From the NCBI GenBank assembly GCA_047601855.1, contig JASGIM010000001.1:2820-66819 (forward strand): 64,000 bases of DNA. Reading direction: 5' to 3'. The notes under the pieces are model-generated. The model ran no database searches, was not told the origin of the DNA, and worked only from the letters and a program-made list of their open reading frames with translations. Position 1 is the first letter of the stretch; the number at the start of each line of letters is the position of its first letter. This document shows, in pieces, positions 4,901 to 45,634 of the stretch. This DNA comes from Flavobacteriales bacterium. Its GTDB lineage: Bacteria > Bacteroidota > Bacteroidia > Flavobacteriales_F > PHOS-HE28. Both the position numbers and the translations under genes were made by a program.

Positions 4901-5792
4901 ATGATGGTCTTCGCGCCGCTGTCGGCGATCAGGTCCACGTGCTGCTCCTCGATCACGGTCTCGCGATCGATCAGCACCTCGTTCCGCTCGATGGACACCA
5001 CTTCGCCGGTGTCCTCGTCCACGAAGTCCTCCACCCAGCTCTTCAGCACGCGGGCGGCGAGCTTGCGGCCCACGACCTCCTTCAGGTTGGCCTTGGTCAC
5101 CTTGATCTCGTCGGCCAGGCCGAAGATCTCGAGGATCTGCTTGTCGCTTTCAAAGCCGATGGCACGCAGCAGCGTGGTCACCGGCAGCTTTTTCTTCCGG
5201 TCGATGTACGCGTACATCACGCCGTTGATGTCCGTGGCGAACTCGATCCACGATCCTTTGAAGGGGATCACACGGGCACTGTACAGCTTGGTGCCGTTGG
5301 CGTGGCGGCTCTGGCCGAAGAACACGCCGGGGCTGCGGTGCAGCTGGCTTACGATCACCCGTTCGGCGCCGTTCACCACGAACGAGCCTTTGGGCGTCAT
5401 GTAGGGATCTGCCCCAGATACACGTCCTGCACGATGGTCTCGAAGTCCTCGTGCTCGGGATCGGTGCAATACAGTTTCAGCTTGGCCTTGAGGGGCACGC
5501 TGTAGGTGAGGCCACGCTCGATGCACTCATCGATGCTGTAGCGCGGGGGGTCTACGAAATAGTCGAGGAACTCCAGCACGAACTGGTTGCGGGTGTCCGT
5601 GATGGGGAAGTTCTCCATGAACACCTTGTAGAGACCTTCATCGTTCCGGTTCTCCGGAAGGGTCTCGATCTGGAAGAACTCCTGGAAGCTCTTCAGTTGG
5701 ATGTCCAAGAAATCCGGATACTGGGCCGGAAGGGCAAGGGAACCGAAATCGATGCGCTTGTTCTTGCGCGAAAGGGTCTTCGCCTGGGCCAT
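1948..5792 (-). CDS. rpoB: DNA-directed RNA polymerase subunit beta (~1281 aa). Apparent 1-nt deletion near 5403.
   Basis: N-terminus [19 protein letters not shown]...VYLGQIP is in ORF 5397-5792. The body [29 protein letters not shown]...ESDNENNKN is in ORF 1948-5526 in a different frame. The junction is at GTAGGGATCTGCCCC (5401-5415). Confidence 0.92.
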
Positions 5793-10890: not shown

Positions 10891-11051
10891 GTGTACAGCA
10901 CGAAAAGAACGGCCTTTCCACCCTTCCCCGGAGGGACCCTCCGGAATTGGGCCTGCAAATGTAAGAACAAACGTGACCTGACCAAATGCCAGCGGCCACG
11001 AATTTCTCCGTGGCCGCCCTGCACACCCCGAGGGTGCTTAGGTACTGTGGA

Positions 11052-11393: not shown

Positions 11394-12288
<895 letters not shown>

Positions 12289-12589: not shown

Positions 12590-12686
12590 GTGCGTTTTTC
12601 GCTAAGCGGGCGGCAAATATAACCACTCCTTCGATCCGTGCAACCCACGTTCGGCCCGCCATTGATCAAGGCCGGTCTTAGGGTCT

Positions 12687-14541
12687 TCATCGCACCAGGG
12701 TCACATATCCAGGCACACGATCCGCAGAAGGGTTATCAGGGGTCACCACGTAGTAGTACGTCCCGTCCGGCACGCCCGAGCCGCTCCAGCCTTGGGCCAA
12801 TGCGCGCGTGCTGAAGATCGAGCTGCCCCCAGCGGTTGTAGATCTCCAACAGGCCCGGACTGCCGTCGTAGTTCAGCGGGATGAAGTGCTCGTTCTTCCC
12901 ATCCCCGTTCGGGCTGAACACGTTGGGCATCTCGATCACGCCCGGGCGCACCATCCGCACCACCGAGCGTACCGTATCCACGCAGCCGCCCGCACTGGTC
13001 ACCACCAGCATCACCGGATAGCTCCCCGGAACGGCCGGGAACGTCGCCGTGACGGACGGGTCCGATGCGTTCGGTGGGGCCGCCGCCCCCAGGTCCCACC
13101 ACCAGCTCACGATGTTCCCGGACCCCGTGCCACTGAGCTGCACTTCCGGATGCTCCACGTTCCCCGGATCGGGGTCGATGCCGATCCCACCGCTCACCGG
13201 AGGATAGACCTGCACGTGCAACACCGTGTCACCCGAGCAACCTGCGCTGTTCCGCACCTGTAGCCGCACCTCGTAGTTCCCCGGCGTATCGTACCGGTAG
13301 CTGAACGCGCTGTCCGCTCGGGTTGCGCCACTACCCAGGTCCCACTGCCGGGCGGCCATCCCATGGGTGGTATCTGCCAAGGCGACCGTCAATGGCGCGC
13401 ACCCGATGAAAGGTTCCGCCACCGGCGTAGGCAGCGGCGGTACCGCTGGTGGTACATACGAGGCGCCCATCAGGCACTCCCCATTGAAGGTGCTCGCCAG
13501 GGTATACTGCCCCGCTCCATAGCCGCCTCCGGAAACGTTCAACGTGGTGCCGGTCTGGCCCGGCAGCGCCACACCGTCCCTGTACCATTGGTAATTGCTG
13601 GCACCGGAGGGCGGTGTACCTATGGCCGCGGCGGTTCCGGCGCACAGTGTGCCGGAACTACTCACGGGTTGCAGTATCTGGTCCCCTGCGACGGTGAGCA
13701 TCAGGTCATCCACCAGGAAAAACGGCGCTCCGCTATAGGTCTCGCCCGTGGAAGGGTTGGTGATCAAGGCGTGGGCGAAGGAGGCCGGCACGTCGCAAGC
13801 CCCACCGATCATGATGGTATGGATGTCCTGCGTGGGCGTGAAGGTGATGGAGACACGGGTCCACGCCCATGCAGGCTGCACGGACACACGGCCCAGTTCG
13901 ATCCAACCGGACTGGTAGCCGATGCAGTCCATCGTGGGCACCGGGAAAGGCACGCAGACGTCCGCGTGGCCGAAGAGGGCCAGGGGGAATTGGTCCGTGA
14001 ATGGCGCCACGTACGATTCCTGGGCCCGGGACTGCCCATGGTTGTTGACCGTAACACCCGCGGAGATCCACAAGGAAATGGTGTACGTAGTGCCCGCCAG
14101 CAGGCGCCTATCCGGCGCCGGATAGGTGAGGCAGGTGCCCACATACTCGAAGTAACCCGGCCCGGCAAAGAACCCCACGGCACCATCTCCATCCGGCGGT
14201 GGGAGGTTGAATCCGATGGGCGCATAACCGCACATGTTGAAGTAATCGGATGTGGCGGCCGTGGCCTGGTGCCAGCCTGCTGCACAATCCAGCCAGGGCC
14301 ATGAGACCGGGGTAACGAACCCGAAAGGACAGCACGTTCCGTTCAACCGGTCCTCGAAGGAGTGGTTGCGGATATAGCTCTGCAGGTCGGGAGCCATCAG
14401 CACCGTGGAGCAGGGACAGTCCGGATCGTTCAGGTCAATCAGGCCGTCGCCGTCGTCATCTATACCATTGTTGCAGATCTCCTGAGCGAGAACAGTGCTT
14501 CCCCACAGGAGCAGGAGCAGAACATGCGTCGATCGTATCAT
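12687..14541 (-). CDS. T9SS cargo protein: signal peptide, Cys-rich DDDGDG motif, PKD domain, type-B C-terminal sorting domain (gliding-motility-associated/CHU_C). Apparent 1-nt insertion near 12820.
   Basis: Starts MIRSTHVLLLLLWGSTVLAQEICNNGIDDDGDGLIDLNDPDCPC. Contains a PKD-like segment. The C-terminus ...MPNVFSPNGDGKNEHF...EIYNRWGQL is in frame A, then SIFSTRALAQGWSGSGVPDGTYYYVVTP...GYVTLVR* is in frame B. The junction is at GAAGATCGAGCTG (12813-12825). Confidence 0.75.
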
Positions 14542-16405
14542 CGTACAAGTGTAATGTGGCCGGCTTGCTTCTTCTCGCTGGCATCGTTCGGTGTGACCAC
14601 ATAGTAATATGTCCCCTCCGGCACCTCTTTCCCCGCGGCGCGGCCATCCCAGCCAGCGGCCAATGCCGTAGTGCTGAAGATCGAGCTGTCCCCAGCGGTT
14701 GTAGATCTCCAGCAGCCCGGCCACGCCGTTGTGGTCCAACGGAGTGAATCGATCGTTCTCCCCATCGCCGTTCGGGCTGAATACGTTGGGCATCTCGATC
14801 TCGCCGTGGCGGGTGATGGTCACCACGGAGCGCACCGTGTCCACACAGCCGTTCGCGCCGGTCACCACCAGCACCACTGGGTAGCTGCCGAGTTCAGCAG
14901 GGAAGGTGGCGATGAGCGATGTGCCCGTCGCCGTTGATGGACTCCGCCGCACCGAGGTCCCACCACCACGACACGATGTCGCCTGCCGAACCCCTGCCGG
15001 AAAGGGCCACTTGGAGATCTTCGGCATCGGCGGGGTCGGGTGTGGCCGTGATGCGCCCTGTCACCCCCGGAAGCACGGTCACCGCGTTCGCGACCAGGGT
15101 ATCCCGCTCGCAACCGGCCCCACTGCGCACGGTAAGATGCACATCATAGGTGCCGGGCACGGTGTAGGTGTGGGTGAGCGCATGGTCCGTACTTGTTGTG
15201 CCGTCGCCGAGGTCCCAGCTCACCGTGGAGCCGTCCCCGGTGTTGCTCGCGAACGCCACCGTGAGCGGCGCACACCCGGTGGAAGGCATCACCACCGGCA
15301 TCGGCACCGCCGGTGGTGGCACATAAGCCGCACCCATCAGGCACTGCCCGTTGTAGGTGCTGGCCATGGTGTAGAGCCCTCCCCCCAGGCCGCCAGCGGA
15401 AACATCCAAGGTGGTACCGGTCTGCTCCGGCAGCGCCACGCCATCGTGGTACCACTGGTAACCAGTGGCCCCGGCAGGCGGCTGCGCCACGGCCCGTGCA
15501 TTCCCCTCGCAAATGGCCCCCGAAGCAATGACGGGGCTGAGCACCTGGTCCCCGGCTTCGGTCAACATCAGGTCGTCAATCAGGAAATAGGGATACATCT
15601 CCTTCCAGCCCCAAGCGGTCAGGATCGGCGTGGGCGCGAAGGACGACGGCGCATCGCAGGCGCTGCCGATAATCACGCTGTGGATGTCCTGCGTGGGCCT
15701 GAAGGTGATGGAGACCCGCACCCAGTCCCATGCGGGCTGCACCATCACCCGCCCCAATTCGTTCCAGCCCGGCTGGTATCCGATGCAGTCGGAGGTCCCG
15801 ATCGGGAAGGCCTGGCAGGCATCAGCATAGCCGAAGATGGCCAGTGGCAGCGGGTCGGGGAAAAGGTGCAAGGAACGGCCCTCCTCGTACGTCTGGGCGA
15901 TGTGGTTATCGCTGGCCGCGCCTGCGATCCACAGCGAAAGCGTATAGGTGGTGCCCGCTTGCAGGATGTTGGCCGGTGGAGGATAGGTGAGGCAAGTACC
16001 GACATATTCCTGCCAAGGGAACCCCGGAACGACCTGAAAGGCCGCCGCCCCTTGTCCGTCCGGCGGTGGCATGGGCGTGCCTGCGGGCGCGAACCCACAG
16101 GTGTGCAGGTAATCTGAAGTGGCGGCCGTGGCCTGCTGCCATCCCATTGCACAACTTAAATAAGGAATAGCGGCACCCAAGACCGGCCCGAACGGGCAGC
16201 ACATCCGCTCCTCGAAGGAATGGTTGCGGATGAAACTCTGCTGACCGGGGGCCATCAGCACCGTGGAACACGGACAATCTGGATCGTTCAGGTCGATCAA
16301 CCCGTCACCGTCATCATCAATGCCATTGTTGCAGATCTCTTGCGCGGGAACCGCTGAACACCATGCGGACAGGACAAGGGTGGATGCCCAATGCAACTTC
16401 TTCAT
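14538..16405 (-). CDS. Paralogous T9SS cargo protein (signal peptide, Cys-rich DDDGDG motif, PKD domain, type-B C-terminal sorting domain). Two apparent 1-nt insertions near 14925 and 14683.
   Basis: Starts MKKLHWASTLVLSAWCSAVPAQEICNNGIDDDGDGLIDLNDPDCPC. PKD segment SWDLGDGTTSTDHALTHTYTVPGTYDVHLTV. The C-terminus is split across three frames: ...WDLGAAESINGDG | TSLIATFPAELGSYP...EIYNRWGQL | IFSTTALAAGWDGRAAGKEVPEGTYYYVVTP...HITLVR*. The stop overlaps the downstream start of the paralog (ATGA). Confidence 0.75.
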
Positions 16406-16570
16406 GCGTTATCCAACGGATAGTGTGGTGACCTGACGGCTTTTCCGGCCAGTGTCCCACTTCCCACAGGTCTTGCCTTCCGCTCATGGCCCTACGCTCC
16501 AAACCTACGTCGCCGATCCTTCAGGTCAAAGGAGCCGCTCAGGGCCCATCGCAGCATGGCCGGATCCCGC

Positions 16571-18869: not shown

Positions 18870-19797
18870 CTATGCGTTGGCCGAAGCGGCCAGCTGGGCA
18901 CGCAGCACGCCCAGTCCTTCCTCGAACGTCCGGGGGGCGTACCCGAGCTCACGGCGGGCCTTGTCCAGGATGAAGCCAGTGCGCGGCGGCCGCTTCGCGG
19001 GCTGGGAAAGGCTGGCGGAAGTGATGGGCCGGATCCCGCTCGGGATCCAGATCGAAGAAGCGCGCGACCCGCTGCACCAGTTCAAGGATGCTCATGCCAT
19101 CCGGCCCGCTGAGGTGGAAGATGCCGATGGCCTTTCGCTTGGCGATCCGGATGCAGCCATCGGCCAGGTCCTCGGCGAGCGTGGGCATGCGCCATTGATC
19201 ATCCACCACATTGATAGGCTGCCCCTTCTCCAAAGCCCCTTTCACCCAAAGCACCACGTTGCTCCGGCTGAGCCCGGCGGCCACGCCATAGACGATGATG
19301 GTGCGGGCAATGGCCCAGCGTTCCAAGCCGCTGTCCATCACCACCCGCTCCGCATCGAGCTTGCTTTGGCCGTAGACGCTCAACGGGTCCGCAACATCCT
19401 CCTCCCGGTACGGCCCATGCTCGCCGTCGAAGATGAAGTCGGTGCTGAGGAGGATGAAGTGGCTGCCATGGCGCTTGGCCGCGTTCACCAGGATCTCCGT
19501 TGCCGTCACGTTCTGTAGCTGGCAGTTCACGGGATCCAGCTCGCAGGCATCCACGTTGGTCATGGCGGCGGTATGGATCACCACTTCCGGCCGGGTGGCA
19601 TCGAACACCTGGTCCACGTCCGCGGCCACCGTGGTGTCCAAGGACCGGTACCGCTCGTTCAAGGAATCGGGTGTGCGGTCCTCTCCCCGCGAGGTGGCGA
19701 TCAACCCGACCGCGGGGTCGTTCCGCAGGGCGGCCACAAGTTTCTGGCCCAGAAGGCCATTGCTGCCGGTGGTCAGAATACGAAGAAGGTCGGGCAT
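18870..19797 (-). CDS. rfbD: dTDP-4-dehydrorhamnose reductase-like NAD(P)-dependent sugar reductase (RfbD family). Apparent 1-nt insertion near 19037.
   Basis: N-terminus MPDLLRILTTGSNGLLGQKLVAAL...YGQSKLDAE... is in ORF 18949-19797. The C-terminus ...SGIRPITSASLSQPAKRPPRTGFILDKARRELGYAPRTFEEGL is in ORF 18870-19085. The junction is at GGATCCCGCTCGGGATCC (19028-19046). Confidence 0.75.
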
Positions 19798-31985: not shown

Positions 31986-34900
31986 TCAGGCGGTCACCGG
32001 CACGGCGGGGGACTTTTCGGGAACACCGTCCTTGTGCAGGTCCACCACCACCGCGGAGGCGATGAAGATGGAGGAGTACGTACCCACGGCGATACCCACG
32101 AGCATCGCGAACACGAAGCCTTTGATGGAGTCGGCGCCGAAGAGGAAGATCACCAGCAGCACGATCAGCACGGTGACCGACGTGTTGATGGTACGGCCCA
32201 GCGTGGAGTTGATGGCCTTGTTGAAGACCACGGCCCACGGGTCCCGCTTGTGGTCCTGGAGGTACTCCCGGATACGGTCGTACACCACCACCGTATCGTT
32301 GATGGAGTAGCCGATCACCGTAAGGATGGCGGCAATGAAGTGCTCATCGATCTCCAGCGAGAAGGGCATGATCTTGTACAGCAGCGAGTAGAGCGCCACC
32401 ACCACCAAGGCATCATGCGCCAGCGAGAGCAGGGCGCCCAGGCCGAACTGCCAGGTGCGGAACCGCACCGCGATGTAGAGGAAGATGAACAGCAGCGCAG
32501 CTATTACGGCGTACCAGGCATGGGCGCGGATGTCGTCGCTGATCGTGGGGTCCACCTTGCGCGAGGCCGCCACGCGGAACGGGTCGTTCATCGTGCGCAG
32601 GCCTTCCTGGAGCTTGTCCTCCACCAGCTTGTCCGTGGCCAGGTCGGTGCTGTTCACCATGTAGTTGGTGGTCACCTTCACCTGGTTGCTGCCGCCGTAG
32701 CTCACCACGCGCACGCCGCTTTCCACGCCTTCCAAGGTGAAGGCCGGCTCCAGGGCCGTGCGCACGTGCTCCACCTCCACCGGCTGGTCGAACTTCACCA
32801 CGTACTCACGGCCGCCGGAGAAGTCCACCCCGTAGTTGAAGCCCTGGGTGAACATGCTCACGAAGCCGGCGATGATGAGGACGCCGGAGAAGAGGTAGAA
32901 GTACTTCCGCTTGGCCATGAACTGGTAGTTCGCGTGGGCGAAGATGTCCTTGTTCCAGCTGTGCCAGAAGGTCATGGACTTGCCGTTCTCCAAGCGCTTG
33001 GAGATGATGAGGCGGCTGATGAAGATGGCGGTGAAGAGCGAGGTGAGGATACCCAGCGCCAGCGTGACCCCGAAGCTCTTGATGGGGCCTGTGCCGAAGA
33101 AGATCAGGATCACGGCCACTACGAAGTGCGTCACGTTCGCATCGATAATGGCGGACATGGCGTGCTTGTAGCCCAGGTCCACGGCGCTCTTGATGGCCTT
33201 GCCGTGGCGCAGTTCCTCCCGGATCCGTTCGTTAATCAGCACGTTGGCATCCACGGCCATACCCACCGTGAGCACGATACCCGCGATGCCGGGCAGGGTG
33301 AGCGAGGCCTGGAGCGAGGCCAGGGTGCCCATCAGCACGAACACGTTGGCGAGCAGGGCCACGTTGGCCACCCAGCCCGAGCCGTTGTAATAGATGACCA
33401 TGAAGAGCATCACCATCAGCATGGCCACCGCGAAGGAGATGAGGCCGCGCTGCACATTCTCGCCACCGAGTGAAGGGCCCACCACCGTTTCATCGATGAT
33501 GCGCGCAGGCGCCGGCAGCGCACCGGCCTTGAGCACGTTGGCCAGGTCGGTCGCTTCTTCCAGTTGGTTGTTGCGGTCGCCGCTGCCCATGCTGATGCTG
33601 CTGCGGCCGCCGGGGATCTCGCCCATGACGTTGGGCGAGGACACCACGCAGCCGTCCAGCACGATGGCGATCTGCTTGCCCACGTTCTCGCCGGTCATCA
33701 GCTTCCAGGTCTGGCCGCCTTCGGCGTTCATCTGCATGGTCACCTCGGCATCGCCCTTCATGTCGAAGTCCTGGCGGGCATCCACGATCACGCTGCCGTC
33801 CAGTTTCGGCTTGCCGCCACGGGGCACGCGCAGGGCGTGGAGGGTGAGGAAATCACGGCCGTTGCCGTCGGCGGCGAACATCTTCGTGGGCTTGCTGCTC
33901 CAGGCCAGTTTCAGGCCCTGGCTCGCGTTCGGGCTGCTGGGGGGGGCCAGGCGGAGCAGGCGGGCCACCTCGGCGGTGTCGCTCACGGCGCAATACCCCA
34001 CCACGTCACCGCGGCCCAAACGGCCGTCACCGGTCATGTTGGGCACCAACCGGCCCAGCAGCGGGTTCTTGGCCAGGCGTTCGGCCTCGGTCATCTCAGG
34101 CTTGGTGGAATCCGCAGCGGTGGTGTCCGCCAAGGCGGCATCGGCCAGGCTGTCGGCCTTGGACTTGCCCGCGGTCTCGGCGGAAGGGTCGGTGGCCAAC
34201 ACCCTCAGGGCCATGCGACGGTTCTTCGCACGTCCTTCTGCAGTAGCGTTGCTGGCCACGGGGTGCTGCGAACCATAGCCTTCCGCTTCCAGCCGGCCGG
34301 TCGCCACACCCTTGCCCACCAAGGCGGCCACTACGGCCTCGGCACGCTGCTGGGAGAGGCGTTGATTGGCCTGCTCATTGCCCGTGCTGTCCGTGTAACC
34401 ACCGATCTTCAGGCGGACCGCTGGATAGGCCTTCATCACTTCGGCCAGGTTGGTCAGCTGTTCCATTGAGCGAGCTGCGTCCAGCTTGGCGCTGCCGCTC
34501 TCGAACGTCACCCGGTCGAAGTCGATCCAATTCTCTTTGTCCACCGCCTTGCCACTGGCCAGGAGATCCACCAATCGCTTCTCCACGCCGGTGGTATTAC
34601 CGCTGATCTTGGTGCCCGTAGGCAAGGTGTGGTCATACGTAGCGCCTCCCTTGTCGGCACTGTCGGCCTTCGCCAGCTCGGGGTGGAGCATGGCGCTGAG
34701 CTTGGTGTTGGAAGCGGCGATCGCCGGGAACACGTCCTGGTTGTCGAAGGTCTCCCAGAACTCCAGGTTGGCGGTGCTTTGCAGCACTTTGCGCACCCGC
34801 TCCTTGTCCTTCACGCCGGGCAGCTCGATCTGGATGCGGCCGCTGATGGACTGCTTCTGGATGCTCGGCTGGGCCACGCCGAACTTGTCGATACGGGTGC

Positions 34901-35513
34901 GGAGGATGCGTTCGGTGTTGTTCAGCGCGATACCGGCCTGGTTGCGCAGCGCGGCGATCACCTGGCTGTTCGTGCTCTCCCGCGGGAACATGGCCGCATT
35001 GTCCTGCGAACTGAAGATGGCGGCGAGGCTGCCGTTCGGGGCGGCCTTGCGGAACTCTTCATCGAAAAGGGTGATGAAATCGCTGTTGCTGCTGGATTGG
35101 CGATGGCGGGCGGCGTCCAGCGCAGCGCGGAAGGCGGGGTCTTGGCTGTTGCCGCTGAGGTTGTCCACCAGTTCGGGGATGCTCACCTCCAGGGTCACGG
35201 CCATGCCGCCCTTCAGGTCAAGGCCGAGGTTGATCTCGCGCTCCTTGCACTCCTTGTACGTGTAACCGAAGAGCGGGTACACCTTGTCGTCATCGTGGTC
35301 GCGCAGGTATTTGTTCTCGAACACCAGCTTGATCGAATCGCGATCGATGTGGGCGGGGTTGCCCAGCGTTCCGATCAGCGAGTCGGCCTGGGCCACGGCG
35401 ATGCCGTCAGCCTTCCGTTCCAGGCCGCCGGTGAAGAAGGAAAAGGACAGCTGCCACAAACATGCGATCGCCAGGAGGATGGTGAACACCCATAGCGCGC
35501 CTCGATTCTGCAT
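31986..35513 (-). CDS. secDF: Protein translocase subunit SecDF (fused), ~1175 aa, with an OmpA-like domain embedded in the SecD periplasmic region
   Basis: MQNRGALWVFTILLAIACLWQLSFSFF... Conserved SecD motifs ANLEFWETF and ...IAIVLDGCVVSSPNVMGEIPGGRSSISMG...LANVLKAGALPAPARIIDETVVGPSLG. SecF half ...GVDFSGGREYVVKF.... Between the SecD motifs lies FDRVTFESGSAKLD...GGYTDSTGNEQANQRLSQQRAEAVVAALVGKGV...GYGSQHPVASNATAEGRAKNRRMALRV (nt ~34197-34526). Confidence 0.88.
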   Translation of the reverse strand: MQNRGALWVFTILLAIACLWQLSFSFFTGGLERKADGIAVAQADSLIGTLGNPAHIDRDSIKLVFENKYLRDHDDDKVYPLFGYTYKECKEREINLGLDLKGGMAVTLEVSIPELVDNLSGNSQDPAFRAALDAARHRQSSSNSDFITLFDEEFRKAAPNGSLAAIFSSQDNAAMFPRESTNSQVIAALRNQAGIALNNTERILRTRIDKFGVAQPSIQKQSISGRIQIELPGVKDKERVRKVLQSTANLEFWETFDNQDVFPAIAASNTKLSAMLHPELAKADSADKGGATYDHTLPTGTKISGNTTGVEKRLVDLLASGKAVDKENWIDFDRVTFESGSAKLDAARSMEQLTNLAEVMKAYPAVRLKIGGYTDSTGNEQANQRLSQQRAEAVVAALVGKGVATGRLEAEGYGSQHPVASNATAEGRAKNRRMALRVLATDPSAETAGKSKADSLADAALADTTAADSTKPEMTEAERLAKNPLLGRLVPNMTGDGRLGRGDVVGYCAVSDTAEVARLLRLAPPSSPNASQGLKLAWSSKPTKMFAADGNGRDFLTLHALRVPRGGKPKLDGSVIVDARQDFDMKGDAEVTMQMNAEGGQTWKLMTGENVGKQIAIVLDGCVVSSPNVMGEIPGGRSSISMGSGDRNNQLEEATDLANVLKAGALPAPARIIDETVVGPSLGGENVQRGLISFAVAMLMVMLFMVIYYNGSGWVANVALLANVFVLMGTLASLQASLTLPGIAGIVLTVGMAVDANVLINERIREELRHGKAIKSAVDLGYKHAMSAIIDANVTHFVVAVILIFFGTGPIKSFGVTLALGILTSLFTAIFISRLIISKRLENGKSMTFWHSWNKDIFAHANYQFMAKRKYFYLFSGVLIIAGFVSMFTQGFNYGVDFSGGREYVVKFDQPVEVEHVRTALEPAFTLEGVESGVRVVSYGGSNQVKVTTNYMVNSTDLATDKLVEDKLQEGLRTMNDPFRVAASRKVDPTISDDIRAHAWYAVIAALLFIFLYIAVRFRTWQFGLGALLSLAHDALVVVALYSLLYKIMPFSLEIDEHFIAAILTVIGYSINDTVVVYDRIREYLQDHKRDPWAVVFNKAINSTLGRTINTSVTVLIVLLVIFLFGADSIKGFVFAMLVGIAVGTYSSIFIASAVVVDLHKDGVPEKSPAVPVTA

Positions 35514-35720
35514 GACGGAAGGACGGTTGGTTTTGGAAAGGTCCGCTTCGGCGGTGGGCCTTGGACGGAGAATGGGGCGGCAAATATAGAAGGATGCCCC
35601 AGCCGTGGACGGGGGGCCTGGACAGCCCACCATGGATGGTGGACAACGCGGCCCCGCGACCGCCCTCCCCGGCCGCGCCAGTGCTCTAGCTTCGCAGCGA
35701 TCCGCTCCATCCCACCCCGC

Positions 35721-38000
35721 ATGCGCCATCGCCTGTCCACCCTCTTCTCCGTTCTTCCCCTGCTCCTCAGCGCGCAATTCGACCTGCATCCCGACCAAAG
35801 CATCCCGGTAACGCGCAACGGCCAGCTGCTCGGCATGCCCTGGGCCGGGGGCCTCAACTACCCGCAGGTGTCGGACATCGATCTGGATGCCGACGGCGAC
35901 AAGGACCTGTTCCTGTTCGACCGCTCCGGCAACCAGGTGATCACCCTGATCAACGATGGCGTGGAGGGGCAGATCAGCTACCACCTCTCGCACGACTACG
36001 ACCACATCTACCCCTTCGCCCAATTGCAGGAGTGGGCGCTTCTGCGCGATTACAACTGCGACGGCAAGGAGGACCTGTTCACCTATACCAATGGTGGCGT
36101 TGCGGTGTACAAGAACACGAGCGTGGGCGGCCACCTCTCCTTCGAACAGGTGGATACGCTGGTGCGGACCAATTATGTGCCGACGGTGACGAACCTATAC
36201 ATCACCCAGGTGGACATCCCGGGCATCGAGGACATCGACGGCGACGACGACCTGGACATCCTCACCTTCAGCATCTTCGGCAACTTCGTAGAGTTCCACC
36301 GCAACATGAGCATGGAACGGTACGGCACCTGCGACAGCCTGGCCTATGAAGTACACAACCGCTGCTGGGGCTTCTTCTCGGAAAGCCTCACCAGCAATGC
36401 CCTGCGCCTGAACAATCCCTGCCAATACAACGTGCCAGCCCCCGAATTTCCGGGCAGGATCACGGAATGGGTCCAGCAACTGAAGTCCAGCAATCCGGCC
36501 GTGGCCGCCAACGCTTTGAAGGAGCTGCGGGCCGCGCACGTGGGCAGCACCCTGCTCCCCTTGGACCTGGACGGCGACCGCGACATGGACCTGATCCTCG
36601 GCGACGTGCTCTACAACAACCTCGTCGCATTGACCAACGGCGGCACCATCGCACAAGCCAACATGACCGCGCAGGACACGCTGTTCCCGCAATATGATGA
36701 CCCCGTGAACCTGGACCTTTTCCCGGCGGCCTTCTTCAAGGACATCAATAACGACGGCAAACGCGACCTGATCGTGACGCCGAACTACCCCACGCAATCG
36801 CAGAACTTCCAGAGCGTGTGGTACTACAAGAACGTGGGCACCGATAGCACGCCGGTGTTCAACTTCCAGCAGGAGGACGTGTTCCAGGACCGCATGCTGG
36901 ACTTCGGGGAGGGCGCCTATCCGGTGGCCTTCGACTATGACCGCGACGGGCTGATGGACCTGGTGGTGGCCGACTACGGCTACTACCAGCAGGGGGGCTC
37001 ATACCCGAGCAAGATGGCCCTGCTGCACAACACGGGCACGGCCTCTGAACCCGCCTTCACGCTGGTGACGGACCACTATGCCGACCTGGACACCACGAAC
37101 CTCAAGGCCATCTATCCGGCCTTCGGGGACATGGACGGCGACGGCGACATGGACCTCTACCTCGGAGAGTACGAAGGGCTCCTGCACTTCTACCGCAACG
37201 TGGCCGTTTCCGGCCCGCCGCAATTCTCGCCGCAGAGCAACCTGGTAAAGGACGATAACGGCACCGTGATCGACGTGGGGCAGTTCTCCACGCCGCAGTT
37301 CTTCGACCTGGACAACGATGGCCTCCAGGACCTGCTGATCGGCGAACGCAACGGCAACCTGAGCTACTACCGCAACACCGGCACCACCAGCAGCCCGGTG
37401 TGGCATCTGGAGAACGACAGCGTGGGCGGGGTGAACACCGCGGAGTGGTGGAACGTCACCGGGTTCAGCGTGCCGTGCATGTTCCGCGGTCCGGACGGCC
37501 AGGCCCGCCTGCTGCTGGGCAGCGAGAGCGGCTGGATCCATGCGTACGACAGCATCGACAACAACCTCAACGGCACCTGGCGGATGTTGGACAGCACTTG
37601 GCAGGACATCCACGAAGGGGCCCGCACGGGCCTTGCCGTGCATGACTTCGACGGCAACGGCAGCCTGGACGTGGTGATCGGCAACTACCGCGGCGGCATC
37701 AGTTTCTGGCGGAACGACCATGTAACGGGCATCGAGCAGGCGGCGGCCCGCGTGGAACATGCCTTCCAAGTGATGCCGAACCCGGCGAACACGGCAGCGG
37801 ACATCCTCCTGGCCCTGGACGCACGGACCGGTATGCGCCTGGACGTGCTGAACGAGCTTGGACAGACGGTCCGTTCCCTGCCCGTGCGCGGCAAGCGCCT
37901 GCACATGGACACCGAGGGCCTGCGCAACGGCGTGTACATGCTGCGCCTGAGCGACGGCCCCGCACGCTGGACGGAACGGCTGGTGGTGCTGCACGAGTGA
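35721..38000 (+). CDS. FG-GAP/VCBS-repeat beta-propeller protein with T9SS type-A C-terminal sorting domain
   Basis: Signal peptide MRHRLSTLFSVLPLLLSAQ. Repeated D.D.DGD.DL(I/V) FG-GAP-like motifs. C-terminus ...FQVMPNPANTAADILLALDARTGMRLDVLNELGQTVRSLPV...GVYMLRLSDGPARWTERLVVLHE. Confidence 0.8.
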   Translation: MRHRLSTLFSVLPLLLSAQFDLHPDQSIPVTRNGQLLGMPWAGGLNYPQVSDIDLDADGDKDLFLFDRSGNQVITLINDGVEGQISYHLSHDYDHIYPFAQLQEWALLRDYNCDGKEDLFTYTNGGVAVYKNTSVGGHLSFEQVDTLVRTNYVPTVTNLYITQVDIPGIEDIDGDDDLDILTFSIFGNFVEFHRNMSMERYGTCDSLAYEVHNRCWGFFSESLTSNALRLNNPCQYNVPAPEFPGRITEWVQQLKSSNPAVAANALKELRAAHVGSTLLPLDLDGDRDMDLILGDVLYNNLVALTNGGTIAQANMTAQDTLFPQYDDPVNLDLFPAAFFKDINNDGKRDLIVTPNYPTQSQNFQSVWYYKNVGTDSTPVFNFQQEDVFQDRMLDFGEGAYPVAFDYDRDGLMDLVVADYGYYQQGGSYPSKMALLHNTGTASEPAFTLVTDHYADLDTTNLKAIYPAFGDMDGDGDMDLYLGEYEGLLHFYRNVAVSGPPQFSPQSNLVKDDNGTVIDVGQFSTPQFFDLDNDGLQDLLIGERNGNLSYYRNTGTTSSPVWHLENDSVGGVNTAEWWNVTGFSVPCMFRGPDGQARLLLGSESGWIHAYDSIDNNLNGTWRMLDSTWQDIHEGARTGLAVHDFDGNGSLDVVIGNYRGGISFWRNDHVTGIEQAAARVEHAFQVMPNPANTAADILLALDARTGMRLDVLNELGQTVRSLPVRGKRLHMDTEGLRNGVYMLRLSDGPARWTERLVVLHE

Positions 38001-38109
38001 TGGCCGCCGCTCTAGGCACGATGCTCTTCGATGGCGATCGCGCCTACTGCAACGGCTGGGCGCGGTGGCCCCGCTTGGGGATGAGGGACGAATGCGAACT
38101 TCCAAGGAC

Positions 38110-38851
38110 ATGAAAGAGAACTTCTTCTCCCCCATCGCCGCGGACTATGCGCGGTTCCGCCCCACCTACCCGCCAGAACTGTTCGCCTATCTGGCATCCA
38201 TCGCGCCGGGCCACGCACTCGCCTGGGACTGCGCCACGGGCAGCGGACAGGCGGCCGCCGGCATGGCTGCGCACTTCGATCGGGTGATCGCCACGGACAT
38301 CAGCGCGGAGCTGCTGGCCCAGGCGCGACCGGACCCGCACATCACTTACCGGCAGGCCGAGGCGGTGGCCAGCGGGATCGCCACCGGCACGGTGGACCTG
38401 GTGACGGTGGCCAACGCGCTGCATTGGTTCCACGGCGCGGCCTTCGAGCACGAAGTGCGGCGCGTGCTGCGCCCGGGCGGCGTCATCGCCGCATGGAGCT
38501 ACGCCTACTTCCGGATCGACCCCGCCGTGGACGCGCTCACCCGCCGGGTGCATGACGTGATCGTGGATCCGTTCTGGATTCGAGCCGAACCGCATCATTG
38601 AGCGCGGCTATGTGGACCTGCACTTCGGCTTCACTCCCATCGTCCCGCCGCCGTTCACCATGACGACCCAGGCGGACCTGGCCGCCATCGAGGGCTACAT
38701 GCGCACCTGGAGCGCCTCGGTGAAATACACCAAGTACCACGGCAGCGATCCGGTATCGCTGGTGCACGGGGAACTGCTGGCCGCCTGGGGCGATCCACAG
38801 GAAGTGCGGCCTGTACACTGGCAACTCAACCTGCGCGTAGGGCGCGTGTGA
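38110..38851 (+). CDS. Class I SAM-dependent methyltransferase. Apparent 1-nt insertion near 38570.
   Basis: ...LAWDCATGSGQAAAGMAAHFDRVIATDISAELL...LRPGGVIAAWSY... is in ORF 38065-38601. The continuation NRIIERGYVDLHFGFTP...HGELLAAWGDP is in ORF 38612-38851. Junction at GTGGATCCGTTCTGG (38562-38576). Confidence 0.7.
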
Positions 38852-40082: not shown

Positions 40083-40186
40083 TTAGGCCCATGGGGGATC
40101 CCCAGGGTCCACGATCCGGGGCGATTTGCGAACAGGGGATGACGGAACGATCAAAAAATGCTTAATTTCCCCACGTTCAGCCCCCC

Positions 40187-40831
40187 ATGACCGCCCTCGA
40201 CCTGGCAACCCTTGAGGCCAACCTCCGTCTAGACCCCACATGGAAGGGCATGGAGGCAGTGGAGCAGGCGTTCGCGAAGCTCATCGATGGATGCATCGCT
40301 GGGGAACGCAAGTGCCAGCAGCGCATCTACGAGCTCTTCTATGGGAAGATGATGGCGGTATGCCTGCGCTACACCAAGAACCACGACCAGGCGAAGGACA
40401 TCCTACAGGATGGCTTCATCAAGGTGTTCCACGGCATGGAGCGGTTCAACCGGGAAGGCAGCTTCGAGGGCTGGATCCGGCGGATCATGGTGAACACGGC
40501 GATCGACCACTTCCGGCGGGCCAAGAACGCCTACCTGTTGCTGGGCGAGGAGCGCAGCATCGAGGAGTTCGGGGACCCGGACGAGGAGGACGACCTGGCG
40601 GACGACGAGATGGAGGACCAGCTGGACCTGAAGCCGGCGGACGTGATCAACGCCATGCAGAAGTTGACGCCGGCCTACCGGACGGTCTTCAACCTCTACG
40701 TCTTCGAGGAATTGACGCACAAGGAGATCGCCGACATGCTGGGCATCAACATCGGCACCTCCAAGAGCAACCTGGCCAAAGCGAAGCACAACTTGAAGAA
40801 GTTGCTGAAGAAAGAACATAAGCTCCCTTAG
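40187..40831 (+). CDS. ECF-type RNA polymerase sigma-70 family factor
   Basis: Region 2: RIYELFYGKMMAVCLRYTKNHDQAKDILQDGFIKVFHGMERFNREGSFEGWIRRIMVNTAIDHFRR. Region 4: LTPAYRTVFNLYVFEELTHKEIADMLGINIGTSKSNLAKAKHNLKKLL. The real start may be the internal Met at 40250. Confidence 0.85.
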   Translation: MTALDLATLEANLRLDPTWKGMEAVEQAFAKLIDGCIAGERKCQQRIYELFYGKMMAVCLRYTKNHDQAKDILQDGFIKVFHGMERFNREGSFEGWIRRIMVNTAIDHFRRAKNAYLLLGEERSIEEFGDPDEEDDLADDEMEDQLDLKPADVINAMQKLTPAYRTVFNLYVFEELTHKEIADMLGINIGTSKSNLAKAKHNLKKLLKKEHKLP

Positions 40832-40835
40832 AGAG

Positions 40836-42179
40836 ATGGCAGAACGGATGAATGAGCTCGACGCCTTCGAGCAGCGCCTGCGGGGCTCCCTCGAACAGTT
40901 CGAGGTACCCTACAACTCAGCGGACTGGGCGCAGTTGGAGCGCGCCTTGGACAATGAGCGCCGGGGATGGCTATTCAAGGGGACCGGCATGGCCACTCTG
41001 TTGGTCGCAGGGGCCTTGGTGGCAGGCGGTGCCGCCTACCTCTGGAGCGGCAAAGGGGATGCGGCCATCGCCGGCAATGGTGGCGCAACCAGCGACCAGC
41101 ATATCCCGGCCAGCACGCCCGGGGCCACCGGCAACGTAGAGAACGCGAACACCGGGTCCGCCCATGCGAACGCCGCCGGACAGGCAGGAACGCAGGTCTC
41201 CTTCGACCATTCGGGCAACACGCCGGAAGGCCCCTCCTCCAACGGTGCCGGTATCCACGCGGCGGGCATCGTGAGCACCGCACACACGCCCGACCATCTC
41301 CACAGCACATCCAACGGGGAGCAAGCGGCCACGACCAAGGCCCCTGCTACCAGCAATGCCGCGGCGCCCGCTACGGCCAAGGCCGCGGAGACGCCCAAGG
41401 CCGAACCGACCTTCCACGCCAGTGTCAGCCAGGGCTGTCCCGGCGCCCCGGTACACTTCAAGGTGGAGCACATGCCCGAGGACGGCATCTACCTCTGGAA
41501 CTTCGGCGATGGTAGCTTCAGCAACAAGCCGAACCCCGAGCATACCTTCAGCAAGCCCGGTACCTACCAGGTGATGCTGTCCATGTCCGCCAGCGGCGTG
41601 GGCACCATCCACAACAAGCCGAGCAGCGACGTGATCGTGATCCACGAACCGCCGCAGGCCGCCTTCAACATCCTGAAGCAGGAATACGACGGCCATATCC
41701 CCTCGGTACACTTCGAGAACCGCGCCATGGGCGGCAAGACCTACGCCTGGTCCTTCGGCGACGGCGCCACCAGCAGCATTGCCCATCCGGATCACATCTA
41801 CAAGAAGAAGGGCGTCTACCAAGTGGAACTGACCGTGACGAACGAGATCGGCTGCGTGGACAAGACCCTGCGCGAGGTGCTCATCGAGAAGGATTACAAC
41901 CTGGATGCGCCCACGGCCTTCTCGCCGAACGGGGACAATATCGACGAGACCTTCATCCCCGAGGCATTGCGCCAACTGGGCGTGAAGTTCCACCTGGCCG
42001 TATACGACACCAACGGCGGGCTGCTGTACGAGACCAACGATGCCACCAAGCCTTGGACCGGCCGCCTGAACAACCGCGGCGACGTATTGCCGGCAGGCGA
42101 GTACGTATGGGTGGTGGACGTGAGCGAGAACCTGCACCTGGACGAGACCTACACCGGCAAGGTGAAGCTAGTGCGCTGA
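40836..42179 (+). CDS. Putative membrane-anchored anti-sigma factor with extracytoplasmic PKD domains and a T9SS type-B C-terminal sorting domain
   Basis: Starts 4 nt after the sigma gene. Short cytoplasmic N-terminus, one TM helix (GMATLLVAGALVAGGAAYLW), a low-complexity Ala/Thr/Pro linker, two PKD-like modules (WNFGDGSFSNKPNPEHTFSKPGTYQVMLSMS; WSFGDGATSSIAHPDHIYKKKGVYQVELTV), and C-terminus LDAPTAFSPNGDNIDETFIP...AVYDTNGGLLYETNDATKPWTGRLNNRGDVLPAGEYVWVV...GKVKLVR. Confidence 0.7.
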   Translation: MAERMNELDAFEQRLRGSLEQFEVPYNSADWAQLERALDNERRGWLFKGTGMATLLVAGALVAGGAAYLWSGKGDAAIAGNGGATSDQHIPASTPGATGNVENANTGSAHANAAGQAGTQVSFDHSGNTPEGPSSNGAGIHAAGIVSTAHTPDHLHSTSNGEQAATTKAPATSNAAAPATAKAAETPKAEPTFHASVSQGCPGAPVHFKVEHMPEDGIYLWNFGDGSFSNKPNPEHTFSKPGTYQVMLSMSASGVGTIHNKPSSDVIVIHEPPQAAFNILKQEYDGHIPSVHFENRAMGGKTYAWSFGDGATSSIAHPDHIYKKKGVYQVELTVTNEIGCVDKTLREVLIEKDYNLDAPTAFSPNGDNIDETFIPEALRQLGVKFHLAVYDTNGGLLYETNDATKPWTGRLNNRGDVLPAGEYVWVVDVSENLHLDETYTGKVKLVR

Positions 42180-42201
42180 ACACGCATTCCTGATGGGATA
42201 A

Positions 42202-42226
42202 CAAGGCCCGGTAATGCCGGGCCTTG
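42202..42226 (+). terminator. Rho-independent terminator-like hairpin after the anti-sigma gene
   Basis: CAAGGCCCGG-taatg-CCGGGCCTTG (10-bp perfect stem) followed by TCTATTCC. Confidence 0.5.
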
Positions 42227-42546
42227 TCTATTCCATCATCCTCAGCAATTCGCCACCAATACCAATAGCCCCATGTCCAGCGAGGCTCGGACATCTCAAT
42301 GTCATGTCATGTGAACTGGAATTGTGACCGGGTTGAAAAGCTCCAGGCACCCTTACGGGCTATCGGACCGTCTTGGTAACAAGGGTCTCATCACGGATGA
42401 TGGGCCGGATCATAATTCGCTACCTTGCACAGATTAGTGCACATGACACCGGATATCCTGCCTGCCCTGATTTGTCCGCTTCAGTCCCAACGGAATAGGC
42501 GTGAAGGCTACTTACCCCTAGGATCCTGACACATGCCCCTACCACG

Positions 42547-45500: not shown

Positions 45501-45634
45501 TGGCCCGCCGATGGAACGGACGCTCCTCCGACGGGGAGGAGGTCCCACAGGGTGTTTACCAGTACAAGTTCCTGGCCAAGACCTCCGATGGCCGCTTCCT
45601 ACAAGGCTTCGGACATGTGACACTCCTGCGGTAA
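42547..45634 (+). CDS. Large T9SS adhesin-like protein (~1028 aa): signal peptide, choice-of-anchor-L N-terminal domain, repeated Ig/PKD-like modules, type-B C-terminal sorting domain. Apparent 1-nt insertion near 43958.
   Basis: MKHPFLPGRLSIAMALACALVGISSSAQIVLNQTQAPTTLVQNVLIGTGIFPSNVTFNGAPGNT... (choice-of-anchor L). The frame changes at CAGGATCGACCCTGG (43950-43964); removing one base gives ...CPGRITLAPQVSGGSNDPAGLIYRWSTGETTPSINP. C-terminus ...YFPNSFTPDGDGVNDTF...LLIFDRWGRITFEAHDMARRWNGRSSDGEEVPQGVYQYKF...GHVTLLR. Confidence 0.8.

What the first reader, a model, noticed from the sequence alone, without database searches (positions are those of the whole stretch)
12687..16405. Tandem pair of divergent paralogous T9SS type-B cargo genes with an N-terminal Cys-rich acidic DDDGDG motif, nested between rpsU and an acyl-CoA dehydrogenase
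Both proteins begin, immediately after the signal peptide, with AQEICNNGIDDDGDGLIDLNDPDCPC(S)TVLMAP. This Cys-rich motif resembles calcium- or metal-binding repeats (thrombospondin type 3 / dockerin / MopE-like). Both then carry a PKD domain and a gliding-motility-type (CHU_C) C-terminal sorting domain. The two genes overlap by ATGA, so they are probably co-transcribed. They are well diverged in the middle but almost identical at the ends. Both contain the same apparent 1-nt insertion at the same position of the C-terminal domain (QL|IFST, next to a GATC), so the shared site is more likely an error hot-spot than a shared mutation. The function of such secreted PKD proteins inside a housekeeping neighbourhood is unknown.
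Basis: partly seen in the sequence, partly recalled or inferred. Interest (0 to 1): 0.55.

Follow-up and report, generated by a model that had tools for sequence, protein, structure and literature searches.

The report
Paired secreted surface-binding proteins, assembly frameshifts
Two neighbouring genes of an uncultured Flavobacteriales bacterium encode ordinary type IX-secreted surface proteins with a calcium-binding cap and a sugar-binding-like head, and the odd frameshift they share is an assembly error that recurs at GATC sites, not biology.

Summary
Two minus-strand genes, A (16405..14538) and B (14541..12687), overlap by ATGA. After frame correction they encode 621 and 617 aa paralogs that are 62.5% identical. 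Each has a signal peptide, an acidic Cys motif, a head with no Pfam match, an Ig-like domain, two PKD domains and a full-length type-B T9SS sorting domain.

The shared 1-nt "insertion" is an assembly artefact. The same T[C]GATC signature breaks rpoC, xerC/D and another cargo gene in this window, and rpoB has a 1-nt deletion next to a GATC. More than 100 homologs are intact at this site, and close relatives read CTG ATC there.

The family is large (about 1,250 clusters) and is often tandemly duplicated. In ten relatives it follows a LuxR regulator and a beta-propeller sensor kinase. The rpsU/acyl-CoA dehydrogenase setting is not conserved.

Verdict: a new member of a known kind, most likely Ca2+-stabilised surface lectins or adhesins. 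Interest is low to moderate.

The parts
16500..16530 (-). Bacteroidetes-type promoter-like site, TTTG-N19-TAGGTTTG, about 95 nt upstream of gene A's ATG
   Evidence: The pattern TTTGN{17,21}TANNTTTG has 2 matches in the window against 0.14 expected. The other match lies upstream of the tRNA/tuf region. The consensus itself is from my own knowledge of Bacteroidetes promoters.
14538..16405 (-). Gene A: 621-aa type-B T9SS cargo protein. The assembly breaks it into three frames.
   Evidence: Pfam and NCBIfam hits are on the corrected protein. NCBI called only the first 503 aa (P0109, MFT3883870.1).
16343..16405 (-). Gene A signal peptide, MKKLHWASTLVLSAWCSAVPA, with probable cleavage before QEIC
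   Evidence: By inspection of the sequence (basic n-region, hydrophobic core, VPA|QE). No signal-peptide predictor was available.
16268..16342 (-). Gene A acidic Cys motif, QEICNNGIDDDGDGLIDLNDPDCPC
   Evidence: NF033662 at E=2.3e-8, residues 21-45. Aligns to teneurin-4 C-rich domain 7PLP.
14923..14923 (-). Gene A frame break 1: an extra base in GACGGG[C]ACATCG. The exact base is uncertain within a few nt, and the site is not next to a GATC.
   Evidence: Frames 0 to 1. Removing the base gives DLGAAESINGDGTSLIATFP, the same length as B's DLGAAAPPNASDPSVTATFP. tblastn hits with L070 orthologs switch frame at 14927-14940.
14682..14683 (-). Gene A frame break 2: an extra base in CAGCT[C]GATCTTC inside the sorting domain (QL|IFST)
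   Evidence: Homologs all read NRWGQ[LMV][IV]FS, and relatives' DNA reads CAG CTG/ATG/GTG ATC TTC.
14538..14799 (-). Gene A type-B C-terminal sorting domain (approximate start)
   Evidence: CHU_C 1-86/86 at 70.7 bits. TIGR04131 1-85/85 at 61.1 bits.
12687..14541 (-). Gene B: 617-aa paralog of A (62.5% aa identity) with one frame break
   Evidence: NCBI's call P0001 (712 aa) is a chimeric ORF that starts inside A's sorting domain and ends prematurely.
14485..14541 (-). Gene B signal peptide, MIRSTHVLLLLLWGSTVLA
   Evidence: By inspection of the sequence.
14410..14484 (-). Gene B acidic Cys motif (residues 20-44), probably binding Ca2+
   Evidence: NF033662 at E=4.3e-8. 7PLP alignment. E2, C4, D9, D17, D20 and C23 are invariant across a 32-sequence alignment whose members are 32-64% identical to gene B.
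13687..14379 (-). Gene B head domain (about residues 55-285): a disulfide-rich jelly roll like CBM4/CBM22, with no Pfam family
13453..13665 (-). Gene B Ig-like beta-sandwich (about residues 293-363)
   Evidence: Model strands 274-344. Weak Ig_2 hit. Weak Ig_7 hit at 365-446 of gene A, just downstream of the corresponding region.
12937..13434 (-). Gene B: two PKD domains (about residues 370-535)
   Evidence: PKD_4 at E=9.9e-17 and PKD at E=2e-13, two stretches each.
12819..12820 (-). Gene B frame break: an extra base in CAGCT[C]GATCTTC, the same 18-nt context as in A
12687..12936 (-). Gene B type-B C-terminal sorting domain
   Evidence: CHU_C 1-86/86 at 59.9 bits. TIGR04131 1-85/85 at 35.6 bits, cutoff 35.
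12614..12643 (-). rpsU's own promoter-like site, TTG-N19-TATATTTG, in the 97-nt spacer after gene B
   Evidence: Read from the sequence. It argues that rpsU is not part of the A-B transcript.

Best explanation
A and B are two intact, co-transcribed paralogous genes for cell-surface proteins exported by the type IX secretion system (T9SS).

**Proposed route and function**
1. A Sec signal peptide takes each protein to the periplasm. This step is inferred from the sequence.
2. The type-B C-terminal domain directs it through the T9SS. As for other type-B cargo, it probably stays on the cell surface. Family membership is shown; surface retention is inferred.
3. An Ig-like domain and two PKD domains form a stalk. 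The stalk holds out an N-terminal jelly-roll head that looks like a carbohydrate-binding module. The fold is shown by a confident model.
4. The head is capped by a disulfide-clamped acidic loop (C-x4-DDDGDGLID-x2-DPDC) that most likely binds Ca2+, as the teneurin C-rich and thrombospondin type-3 loops do. This is inferred from ligand conservation.
5. The head most likely binds a polysaccharide or another surface ligand. The two diverged heads probably give two specificities. This step is inferred.

**Regulation.** In this genome the pair has its own promoter. In relatives the family sits behind a two-component system.

**Frame breaks.** All three are assembly errors, not mutations. Two of them belong to a recurrent error class in which TGATC is written as TCGATC.
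For: **Domain calls**
- PKD x2, CHU_C and TIGR04131 score above cutoff, and the sorting-domain models are matched end to end only after frame correction.
- More than 100 full-length homologs of 612-647 aa cover 97-100% of corrected B. All twelve sequences read in full, apart from this window's own two calls, have NRWGQ[LMQR][ILV][FLY][SG]T uninterrupted.

**Frame breaks are artefacts**
- The identical T[C]GATC insertion splits rpoC at 1150, xerC/D at 11884 and a 1,030-aa cargo gene at 43957.
- rpoB has a 1-nt deletion in GATCCC at 5404.
- The corrected RpoC and RpoB peptides align without gaps across the junctions to solved RNA polymerase (9n9p_D and 9n9p_C, E=1e-86 and 7e-103).
- Five of about eight frame breaks in 64 kb lie directly against a GATC. 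About 1.4% of positions do so by chance (one search counts), giving a binomial P of about 3e-8 (my arithmetic).
- Relatives read CAG CTG ATC TTC, or ATG, GTG or TTG before ATC, at the sorting-domain site.
- The downstream frame is conserved in protein between A, B and homologs, with in-frame indels.

**Head and cap**
- AlphaFold pLDDT is 92.9 and pTM 0.89.
- The motif hits NF033662 and aligns to 7PLP. The C838/C857 cysteine pair and 8 of 9 Ca-ligand side chains are kept or conservatively replaced.

**Operon.** ATGA overlap, promoter-like site upstream of A, and 2-6 nt junctions in relatives' pairs.
Against: - No ligand is known for any member, and sequence similarity to CBM_4_9 is below cutoff (16.7 bits against 25.9).
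- The same fold also serves protein-protein adhesion (MAM, ephrin-receptor and reelin hits).
- No PorP/SprF-like partner gene lies next to the pair, and no core T9SS gene is in the window.
- Ca2+ binding rests on a non-significant PDB hit (E=0.19) plus motif logic. The motif has 3 cysteines, not 6.
- The error is not deterministic: 26 sites of the form G[CG]TGATC[CT] are intact. So two hits in two paralogs need the identical 18-nt context to explain them. No reads were available for direct proof.
Confidence: 0.62

Rival explanations
1. The head is a protein-binding or cell-cell adhesion module of the MAM type, or a gliding-motility adhesin in the manner of SprB or RemA, rather than a glycan binder. 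It could also bind a metal, as the jelly-roll protein CorA/MopE does.
For: The top Foldseek hit is the MAM-Ig module of RPTP mu, which has the same jelly-roll-plus-Ig layout. Meprin, neuropilin MAM and ephrin-receptor domains also score. CorA (4bz4) appears at rank 43. In my own knowledge of the field, type-B sorting domains are typical of motility adhesins.
Confidence: 0.25
2. The frameshifts are real. One sorting domain acquired a 1-nt insertion, and a short gene-conversion tract copied it into the paralog, so both genes are recent pseudogenes or make truncated, unsecreted products.
For: Gene conversion between paralog tails is evident in other genomes, where tails cluster by genome. About 40 nt around the site are nearly identical in A and B. 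Gene A has a further, unrelated break at 14923.
Against: The same T[C]GATC insertion occurs in essential single-copy rpoC and in xerC/D, and rpoB is also broken. No conversion tract is visible between A and B, whose synonymous codon identity is 0.5-0.85. The downstream frames still encode conserved sorting-domain sequence.
Confidence: 0.05
3. A programmed +1 ribosomal frameshift at CUC-G-AUC regulates how much sorting-domain-bearing protein is made.
For: The site and the 18-nt context are identical in both paralogs.
Against: No homolog has the shift. There is no slippery or stall motif. The same sequence change disrupts unrelated genes, including rpoC.
Confidence: 0.01

Closest known systems
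T9SS type-B CTD cargo proteins (TIGR04131 / Pfam CHU_C), e.g. Flavobacterium johnsoniae SprB and RemA
   Same: A C-terminal sorting domain matched end to end above the curated cutoffs, an N-terminal signal peptide, Ig/PKD-type stalk domains, and a Bacteroidota host.
   Different: Much smaller (about 620 aa). There is no adjacent PorP/SprF-like gene. The head is a CBM-like jelly roll, not SprB repeats or RemA's lectin domain. The comparison with SprB and RemA is from my own knowledge.
CBM4 / CBM22 / CBM16 carbohydrate-binding modules (Pfam CBM_4_9 superfamily), and the CBMs of T9SS or PKD proteins of marine Bacteroidota (PDB 8xmz porphyran-binding, 8qx6 laminarin-binding)
   Different: Sequence identity is 10-19%. 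The Pfam CBM_4_9 score is below cutoff. The domain is larger (about 230 aa), rich in conserved cysteines and capped by an acidic Ca motif. No ligand is known.
Teneurin C-rich domain (human teneurin-4 residues 834-871, PDB 7PLP)
   Same: The core C-x4-D-[DN]-D-G-D-G-L-[IV]-D-x2-D-P-D-C is shared. The Cys1-Cys3 pair and 8 of 9 Ca2+-ligand side chains are kept.
   Different: Only 3 of the 6 cysteines are present. The conotoxin-like C-terminal half is missing. The profile hit is not significant (E=0.19). It precedes a jelly roll, not a transthyretin-like domain.
NCBIfam NF033662, acidic double-disulfide repeat
   Same: The motif matches profile positions 3-27 of 32 at E about 2-4e-8. Giant relatives carry 8-20 tandem copies of the same motif.
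   Different: There is a single copy, so the protein scores 33 bits against a cutoff of 41. No paper describing the repeat was found.

Membership tests
T9SS type-B sorting domain proteins (TIGR04131 / PF13585) | HMM match above the curated cutoff | tested here: met
   TIGR04131 scores 61.1 bits (A) and 35.6 bits (B) against a cutoff of 35. CHU_C scores 70.7 and 59.9 bits against 27. B is only just above the NCBIfam cutoff.
T9SS type-B sorting domain proteins (TIGR04131 / PF13585) | Domain at the extreme C-terminus, complete | tested here: met
   Profile 1-85/85 and 1-86/86 end at the last residue, but only after removing the extra base.
T9SS type-B sorting domain proteins (TIGR04131 / PF13585) | N-terminal Sec signal peptide | tested here: inconclusive
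   A typical n-h-c layout and an AxA-like site are seen by eye. No predictor was run.
T9SS type-B sorting domain proteins (TIGR04131 / PF13585) | Genome encodes a T9SS; cognate PorP/SprF-like partner | not testable with these tools
   The window holds other type-A and type-B cargo but no core T9SS or PorP/SprF gene. The rest of the genome is not available.
PKD domain (PF18911 / PF00801) | HMM match above cutoff | tested here: met
   PKD_4 scores 77.3 and 61.2 bits against a cutoff of 27, with two stretches in each protein.
Acidic double-disulfide repeat (NF033662) | Score above the curated whole-protein cutoff (repeats in tandem) | tested here: not met
   33.6 and 32.7 bits against a cutoff of 41, from a single copy. 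The motif-level match is significant at E about 1e-8.
Acidic double-disulfide repeat (NF033662) | Four cysteines forming two disulfides within the repeat | tested here: not met
   The motif has only three cysteines (C4, C23, C25). Any partner for C25 must lie in the head domain. Model coordinates could not be inspected.
Teneurin C-rich Ca2+-binding domain | Six cysteines, three disulfides (1-3, 2-5, 4-6) | tested here: not met
   Only the Cys1/Cys3 equivalents align. Positions of Cys2 and Cys4 are Leu and Pro.
Teneurin C-rich Ca2+-binding domain | Eight acidic residues plus one Asn coordinating three Ca2+ | tested here: inconclusive
   By alignment, D843, N844, D845, D847, D851, D854 and D856 correspond to D, D, D, D, D, D and D. 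D840 corresponds to N. E835 corresponds to E, shifted by one residue. Metal binding itself was not tested.
CBM_4_9 (PF02018) carbohydrate-binding modules | Sequence HMM match above cutoff | tested here: not met
   16.7 bits against 25.9, E=0.0096, over a short stretch.
CBM_4_9 (PF02018) carbohydrate-binding modules | Jelly-roll fold superposable on CBM4/CBM22 | tested here: met
CBM_4_9 (PF02018) carbohydrate-binding modules | Binds a carbohydrate | not testable with these tools
   This needs a binding experiment.

The most novel reading that the evidence does not exclude
The head plus its cap is the founding example of an undescribed ligand-binding module: a cysteine-rich CBM-like jelly roll capped by a teneurin-type Ca2+ loop. 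It always sits at the N-terminus of Bacteroidota T9SS cargo (about 1,250 clusters at 50% identity, no Pfam model). It is kept as diverged tandem paralogs whose stalks are homogenised by gene conversion. In many Flavobacteriales it is wired to a beta-propeller sensor kinase and a LuxR regulator. Together these would form a surface glycan-capture system independent of SusC/D. The bacterial motif may also be the ancestor of the teneurin C-rich domain.
Probability: 0.3. Interest if true: 0.45.

Novelty: new member of a known kind. Interest (0 to 1): 0.22.

Why it matters
There are two practical points.

**Assembly quality.** This long-read-style metagenome-assembled genome carries a recurrent insertion at GATC sites, about one frame break per 8 kb in this window. 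The errors split essential genes and produced two wrong protein records in NCBI: a 712-aa chimera and a 503-aa truncation. Anyone mining this assembly for pseudogenes or recoding events would be misled. The pattern also hints that GATC is methylated in this organism.

**Protein family.** The proteins belong to a large secreted family that is unnamed apart from its PKD domains and sorting tail. Its head is a confident CBM-like fold with a probable Ca2+ cap. That gives a concrete, testable guess for what many "gliding motility-associated C-terminal domain" proteins of environmental Flavobacteriales do. Nothing here overturns current understanding.

Tried and rejected
- **Synteny.** tblastn of tuf, hpf, xerC/D, rpsU, the acyl-CoA dehydrogenase, the HHH-motif protein and the gene at 18949..19797 against 80 related loci found no conserved link to the pair. 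The only hits were two acyl-CoA dehydrogenase hits in distant loci. The "housekeeping context" idea was dropped.
- **Exact-sequence look-ups.** Look-ups of P0002 and P0109 to fetch their contigs returned nothing. The closest relative's DNA and the rest of this contig could therefore not be read.
- **Generic frame-change scan.** A GC3-based scan at every GATC was too noisy, because antisense frames also score well in a 62% GC genome.
- **Deletion test.** Deleting the C at all 86 TCGATC sites and looking for merged ORFs was also too noisy. The census of frame breaks therefore rests on overlapping coding-like ORFs plus homology and may be incomplete. The break near 38575 in a methyltransferase was not pinned down.
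- **Pfam on the motif alone.** At E<=10 there were no hits to thrombospondin type-3, dockerin or MopE families.
- **Literature.** A search for the NCBIfam repeat name found no paper. A search on nanopore errors at Dam sites gave nothing I relied on. The link to methylation is my inference.
- **Profile search against PDB.** The head-domain profile found only the teneurin motif, not a CBM.
- **AlphaFold database.** The afdb50 fold library was unavailable.
- **Gene conversion between A and B.** I looked for a recent tract and did not find one.
Full report
**What is there**

The minus strand between 16405 and 12687 holds two genes in tandem. Gene A starts at 16405. Gene B starts at 14541 with an ATG that overlaps A's TGA stop as ATGA.

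As assembled, neither gene reads through:
- A changes frame twice, near 14923 and at 14682/3.
- B changes frame once, at 12819/20.

Removing one base at each site gives proteins of 621 and 617 aa. They are 62.5% identical in protein and 67% in DNA.

"Almost identical at the ends" is too strong. The motif is identical in protein, but only 56-59% of its identical residues use the same codon. The sorting domain is 70-80% identical. No recent conversion tract is visible.

**Domains**

On the corrected proteins:
- Pfam finds two PKD stretches in each, plus CHU_C matched 1-86 of 86.
- NCBIfam finds the type-B T9SS sorting domain TIGR04131 matched 1-85 of 85. All of these are above the curated cutoffs.
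- The acidic Cys motif hits NCBIfam NF033662, the "acidic double-disulfide repeat", at E about 2-4e-8. This is a single copy, so the protein stays under the whole-protein cutoff.
- Residues ~50-365 have no Pfam family apart from a faint CBM_4_9 hit (E=0.0096) and a weak Ig_2 hit (E=0.024). The motif alone hits nothing in Pfam even at E<=10.

**The frameshifts are assembly errors**

Homologs are intact:
- More than 100 homologs of 612-647 aa cover 97-100% of corrected B.
- The sequences I read in full have the NRWGQ-x-x-F-S-T stretch unbroken.
- The window's own NCBI protein calls are a 503-aa truncation of A (P0109) and a 712-aa chimera that begins in A's sorting domain and runs through B (P0001).

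Other genes in the window show the same damage. I looked for overlapping coding-like ORFs on one strand.
- **rpoC:** ...VVPV / [16 protein letters not shown]... is split at GGT[C]GATCC (1150).
- **xerC/D:** ...DRL / ILELLYGTGMRLAEL... is split at GCT[C]GATCC (11884). Pfam places the N-terminal SAM-like domain and the catalytic domain on the two pieces.
- **A 1,030-aa type-B cargo gene:** split at GGATC[G]ACC on the plus strand (43957). This is the reverse complement of the same change, and tblastn with an ortholog switches frame there.
- **rpoB:** lacks one C in GATCCC(C)TAC at 5404.

The corrected RpoC and RpoB peptides align without a gap across the junctions to solved RNA polymerase chains (9n9p_D at E=1e-86; 9n9p_C at E=7e-103). 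Essential single-copy genes cannot be truly broken, so this error class belongs to the assembly.

The A and B sites have exactly the same signature, CAGCT[C]GATCTTC. In relatives the site reads CAG CTG ATC TTC, or ATG, GTG or TTG before ATC. That is TGATC with no extra C.

By my arithmetic from the counts:
- Five of about eight frame breaks in 64 kb abut a GATC.
- About 1.4% of positions do so by chance.
- The binomial P is about 3e-8.

The error is partial. Twenty-six sites of the form G[CG]TGATC[CT] are intact. The identical 18-nt context in A and B is the likely reason both were hit.

The source appears to be an NCBI metagenome-assembled genome. Related records with nearby accession numbers sit on 1.3-1.65 Mb contigs. 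This suggests a long-read assembly. A link to GATC methylation is my inference and was not tested.

A real mutation spread by gene conversion is very unlikely, and so is programmed frameshifting.

**The N-terminal motif**

A profile of the module, built from 32 sequences that are 32-64% identical to gene B, found only one thing in the PDB. That was the C-rich domain of human teneurin-4 (7PLP), aligned as iCnngiDddgdgliDLnDpdC to [21 protein letters not shown]. The hit is weak (E=0.19).

The crystal structure paper reports (PMC9058538):
- three Ca2+ ions held by eight acidic residues and one Asn;
- two of the ions coordinated as in thrombospondin type-3 repeats;
- a Cys1-Cys3 disulfide.

In A and B the Cys1/Cys3 pair is kept, and eight of the nine ligand side chains are kept or conservatively replaced. 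Cys2 and Cys4-6 are absent. E2, C4, D9, D17, D20 and C23 are invariant across the family alignment.

The motif works like that domain but is not a member of it.

**The head**

AlphaFold on residues 20-365 of B, with 46 aligned sequences, gave pLDDT 92.9 and pTM 0.89. The model has a beta-sandwich of about 200 residues followed by an Ig-like sandwich.

- MAM, reelin and ephrin-receptor domains follow slightly lower.
- Foldseek agrees, and also lists the MAM-Ig module of RPTP mu.

The fold is therefore a galactose-binding-like jelly roll. Carbohydrate binding is the best guess, and protein adhesion is the main rival.

**Family and context**

An exhaustive HMMER search with the cap plus head found 1,247 cluster representatives (660 at E<=1e-10). 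In most of the 150 best hits listed the module starts near residue 20, in proteins of very different lengths. A few giant proteins repeat the acidic motif 8-20 times.

The rpsU/acyl-CoA dehydrogenase setting is not conserved in any of 80 related loci. In ten relatives the family member or pair instead follows a LuxR-type response regulator and a ~1,040-aa sensor kinase with beta-propeller repeats. In at least two of them (L070, L003) it is followed by 1,030-1,160-aa type-B cargo. This window holds the ortholog of that cargo at 42532..45631 but no such two-component system.

Tandem pairs with 2-6 nt or a few hundred nt between them occur in several genomes. Trees show that heads group by paralog type across genomes, while stalks and sorting domains group within genomes. 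This means concerted evolution of the tail and divergence of the head.

In this window a Bacteroidetes-type promoter match (TTTG-N19-TAGGTTTG) lies 95 nt upstream of A. It is one of only two such matches in 64 kb, against 0.14 expected. rpsU has its own match after B. The pair therefore looks like a self-contained two-gene unit that landed among housekeeping genes.

**Verdict**

The genes are ordinary members of a large, generically annotated family of T9SS type-B cargo. The shared frameshift is a systematic assembly artefact.

The modest novelty lies in three things:
- the head is a confident CBM-like fold without a family model;
- its cap resembles the teneurin Ca2+ domain;
- relatives link the family to a sensor kinase.

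None of this is surprising for a specialist. Interest is 0.22.

Noticed in passing
window 1150 (-), 5404 (-), 11884 (-), 43957 (+): Single-base frame breaks occur in rpoC, rpoB, xerC/D and a 1,030-aa type-B cargo gene. Three are the same T[C]GATC insertion seen in genes A and B, and rpoB has a C missing from GATCCCC. The assembly has roughly one frame break per 8 kb here, mostly at GATC. This suggests a long-read consensus error, possibly tied to GATC methylation.
   Followed up: yes
window ~38560-38600 (+): A SAM-methyltransferase-like ORF (37990..38598) continues in another frame (38561..38848). The exact break was not located and is not obviously at a GATC.
   Followed up: partly
L070 5914-19846; L003 6128-17183; also L001, L004-L007, L010, L011, L044: In ten related Flavobacteriales genomes the family member or pair follows a LuxR-type response regulator and a ~1,040-aa sensor kinase with beta-propeller (Reg_prop) repeats. 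In L070 and L003, the two loci where downstream genes were checked, further type-B cargo of 1,030-1,160 aa comes next. This conserved cluster is absent from the window.
   Followed up: partly
P0024/P0043, P0075/P0102, P0058/P0070, P0081/P0085; L003 and L005 pairs: Within a genome the two paralogs share near-identical stalks, sorting domains and sometimes signal peptides, while the heads stay distinct. Tail trees group by genome and head trees group by paralog type. This indicates gene conversion of the tail.
   Followed up: partly
P0081 and P0085 (1.33 Mb contig, NCBI MFT3884775.1 and neighbour): Both paralogs start their sorting domain with an aberrant shared segment, GIQAHGLADSGHWQNGRFIPP, in place of IEMPNVFSPNGDGxNDRFxP. 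Both lose the CHU_C Pfam hit. This may be another assembly error or a converted lesion.
   Followed up: no
NCBI accessions MFT3883870.1, MFT3884775.1, MFT3884978.1, MFT3886204.1: The window's gene A and three homologs on 1.33 and 1.65 Mb contigs have accession numbers within about 2,300 of each other. They may all come from one near-complete genome, which would then hold at least six paralogs of this family.
   Followed up: no
window 40166..45631 (+): An ECF sigma factor (40166..40828) is followed by a 456-aa PKD and type-B cargo protein (40809..42176) and by the frameshifted ~1,030-aa type-B cargo (42505..45631). A FG-GAP protein with a type-A sorting domain lies at about 36201..37997.
   Followed up: partly
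window 31989..36194 (-): The SecDF fusion ORF carries an OmpA-family domain (residues 328-424 of the translation from 35489) between the first SecD domain and the P1 head. This is an unusual insertion, if it is real.
   Followed up: no
window 10956..10986 (-) and 12614..12643 (-): There are further Bacteroidetes-type promoter matches. TTTG-N19-TACATTTG lies between hpf and the tRNA/tuf region. TTG-N19-TATATTTG lies 25 nt upstream of rpsU.
   Followed up: partly
P0128, P0135, P0145, P0159 and similar: Giant proteins of 1,000-4,700 aa carry 8-20 tandem copies of the same acidic Cys motif. The similarity of this bacterial motif to the teneurin C-rich domain may bear on the bacterial ancestry of teneurins.
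   Followed up: no
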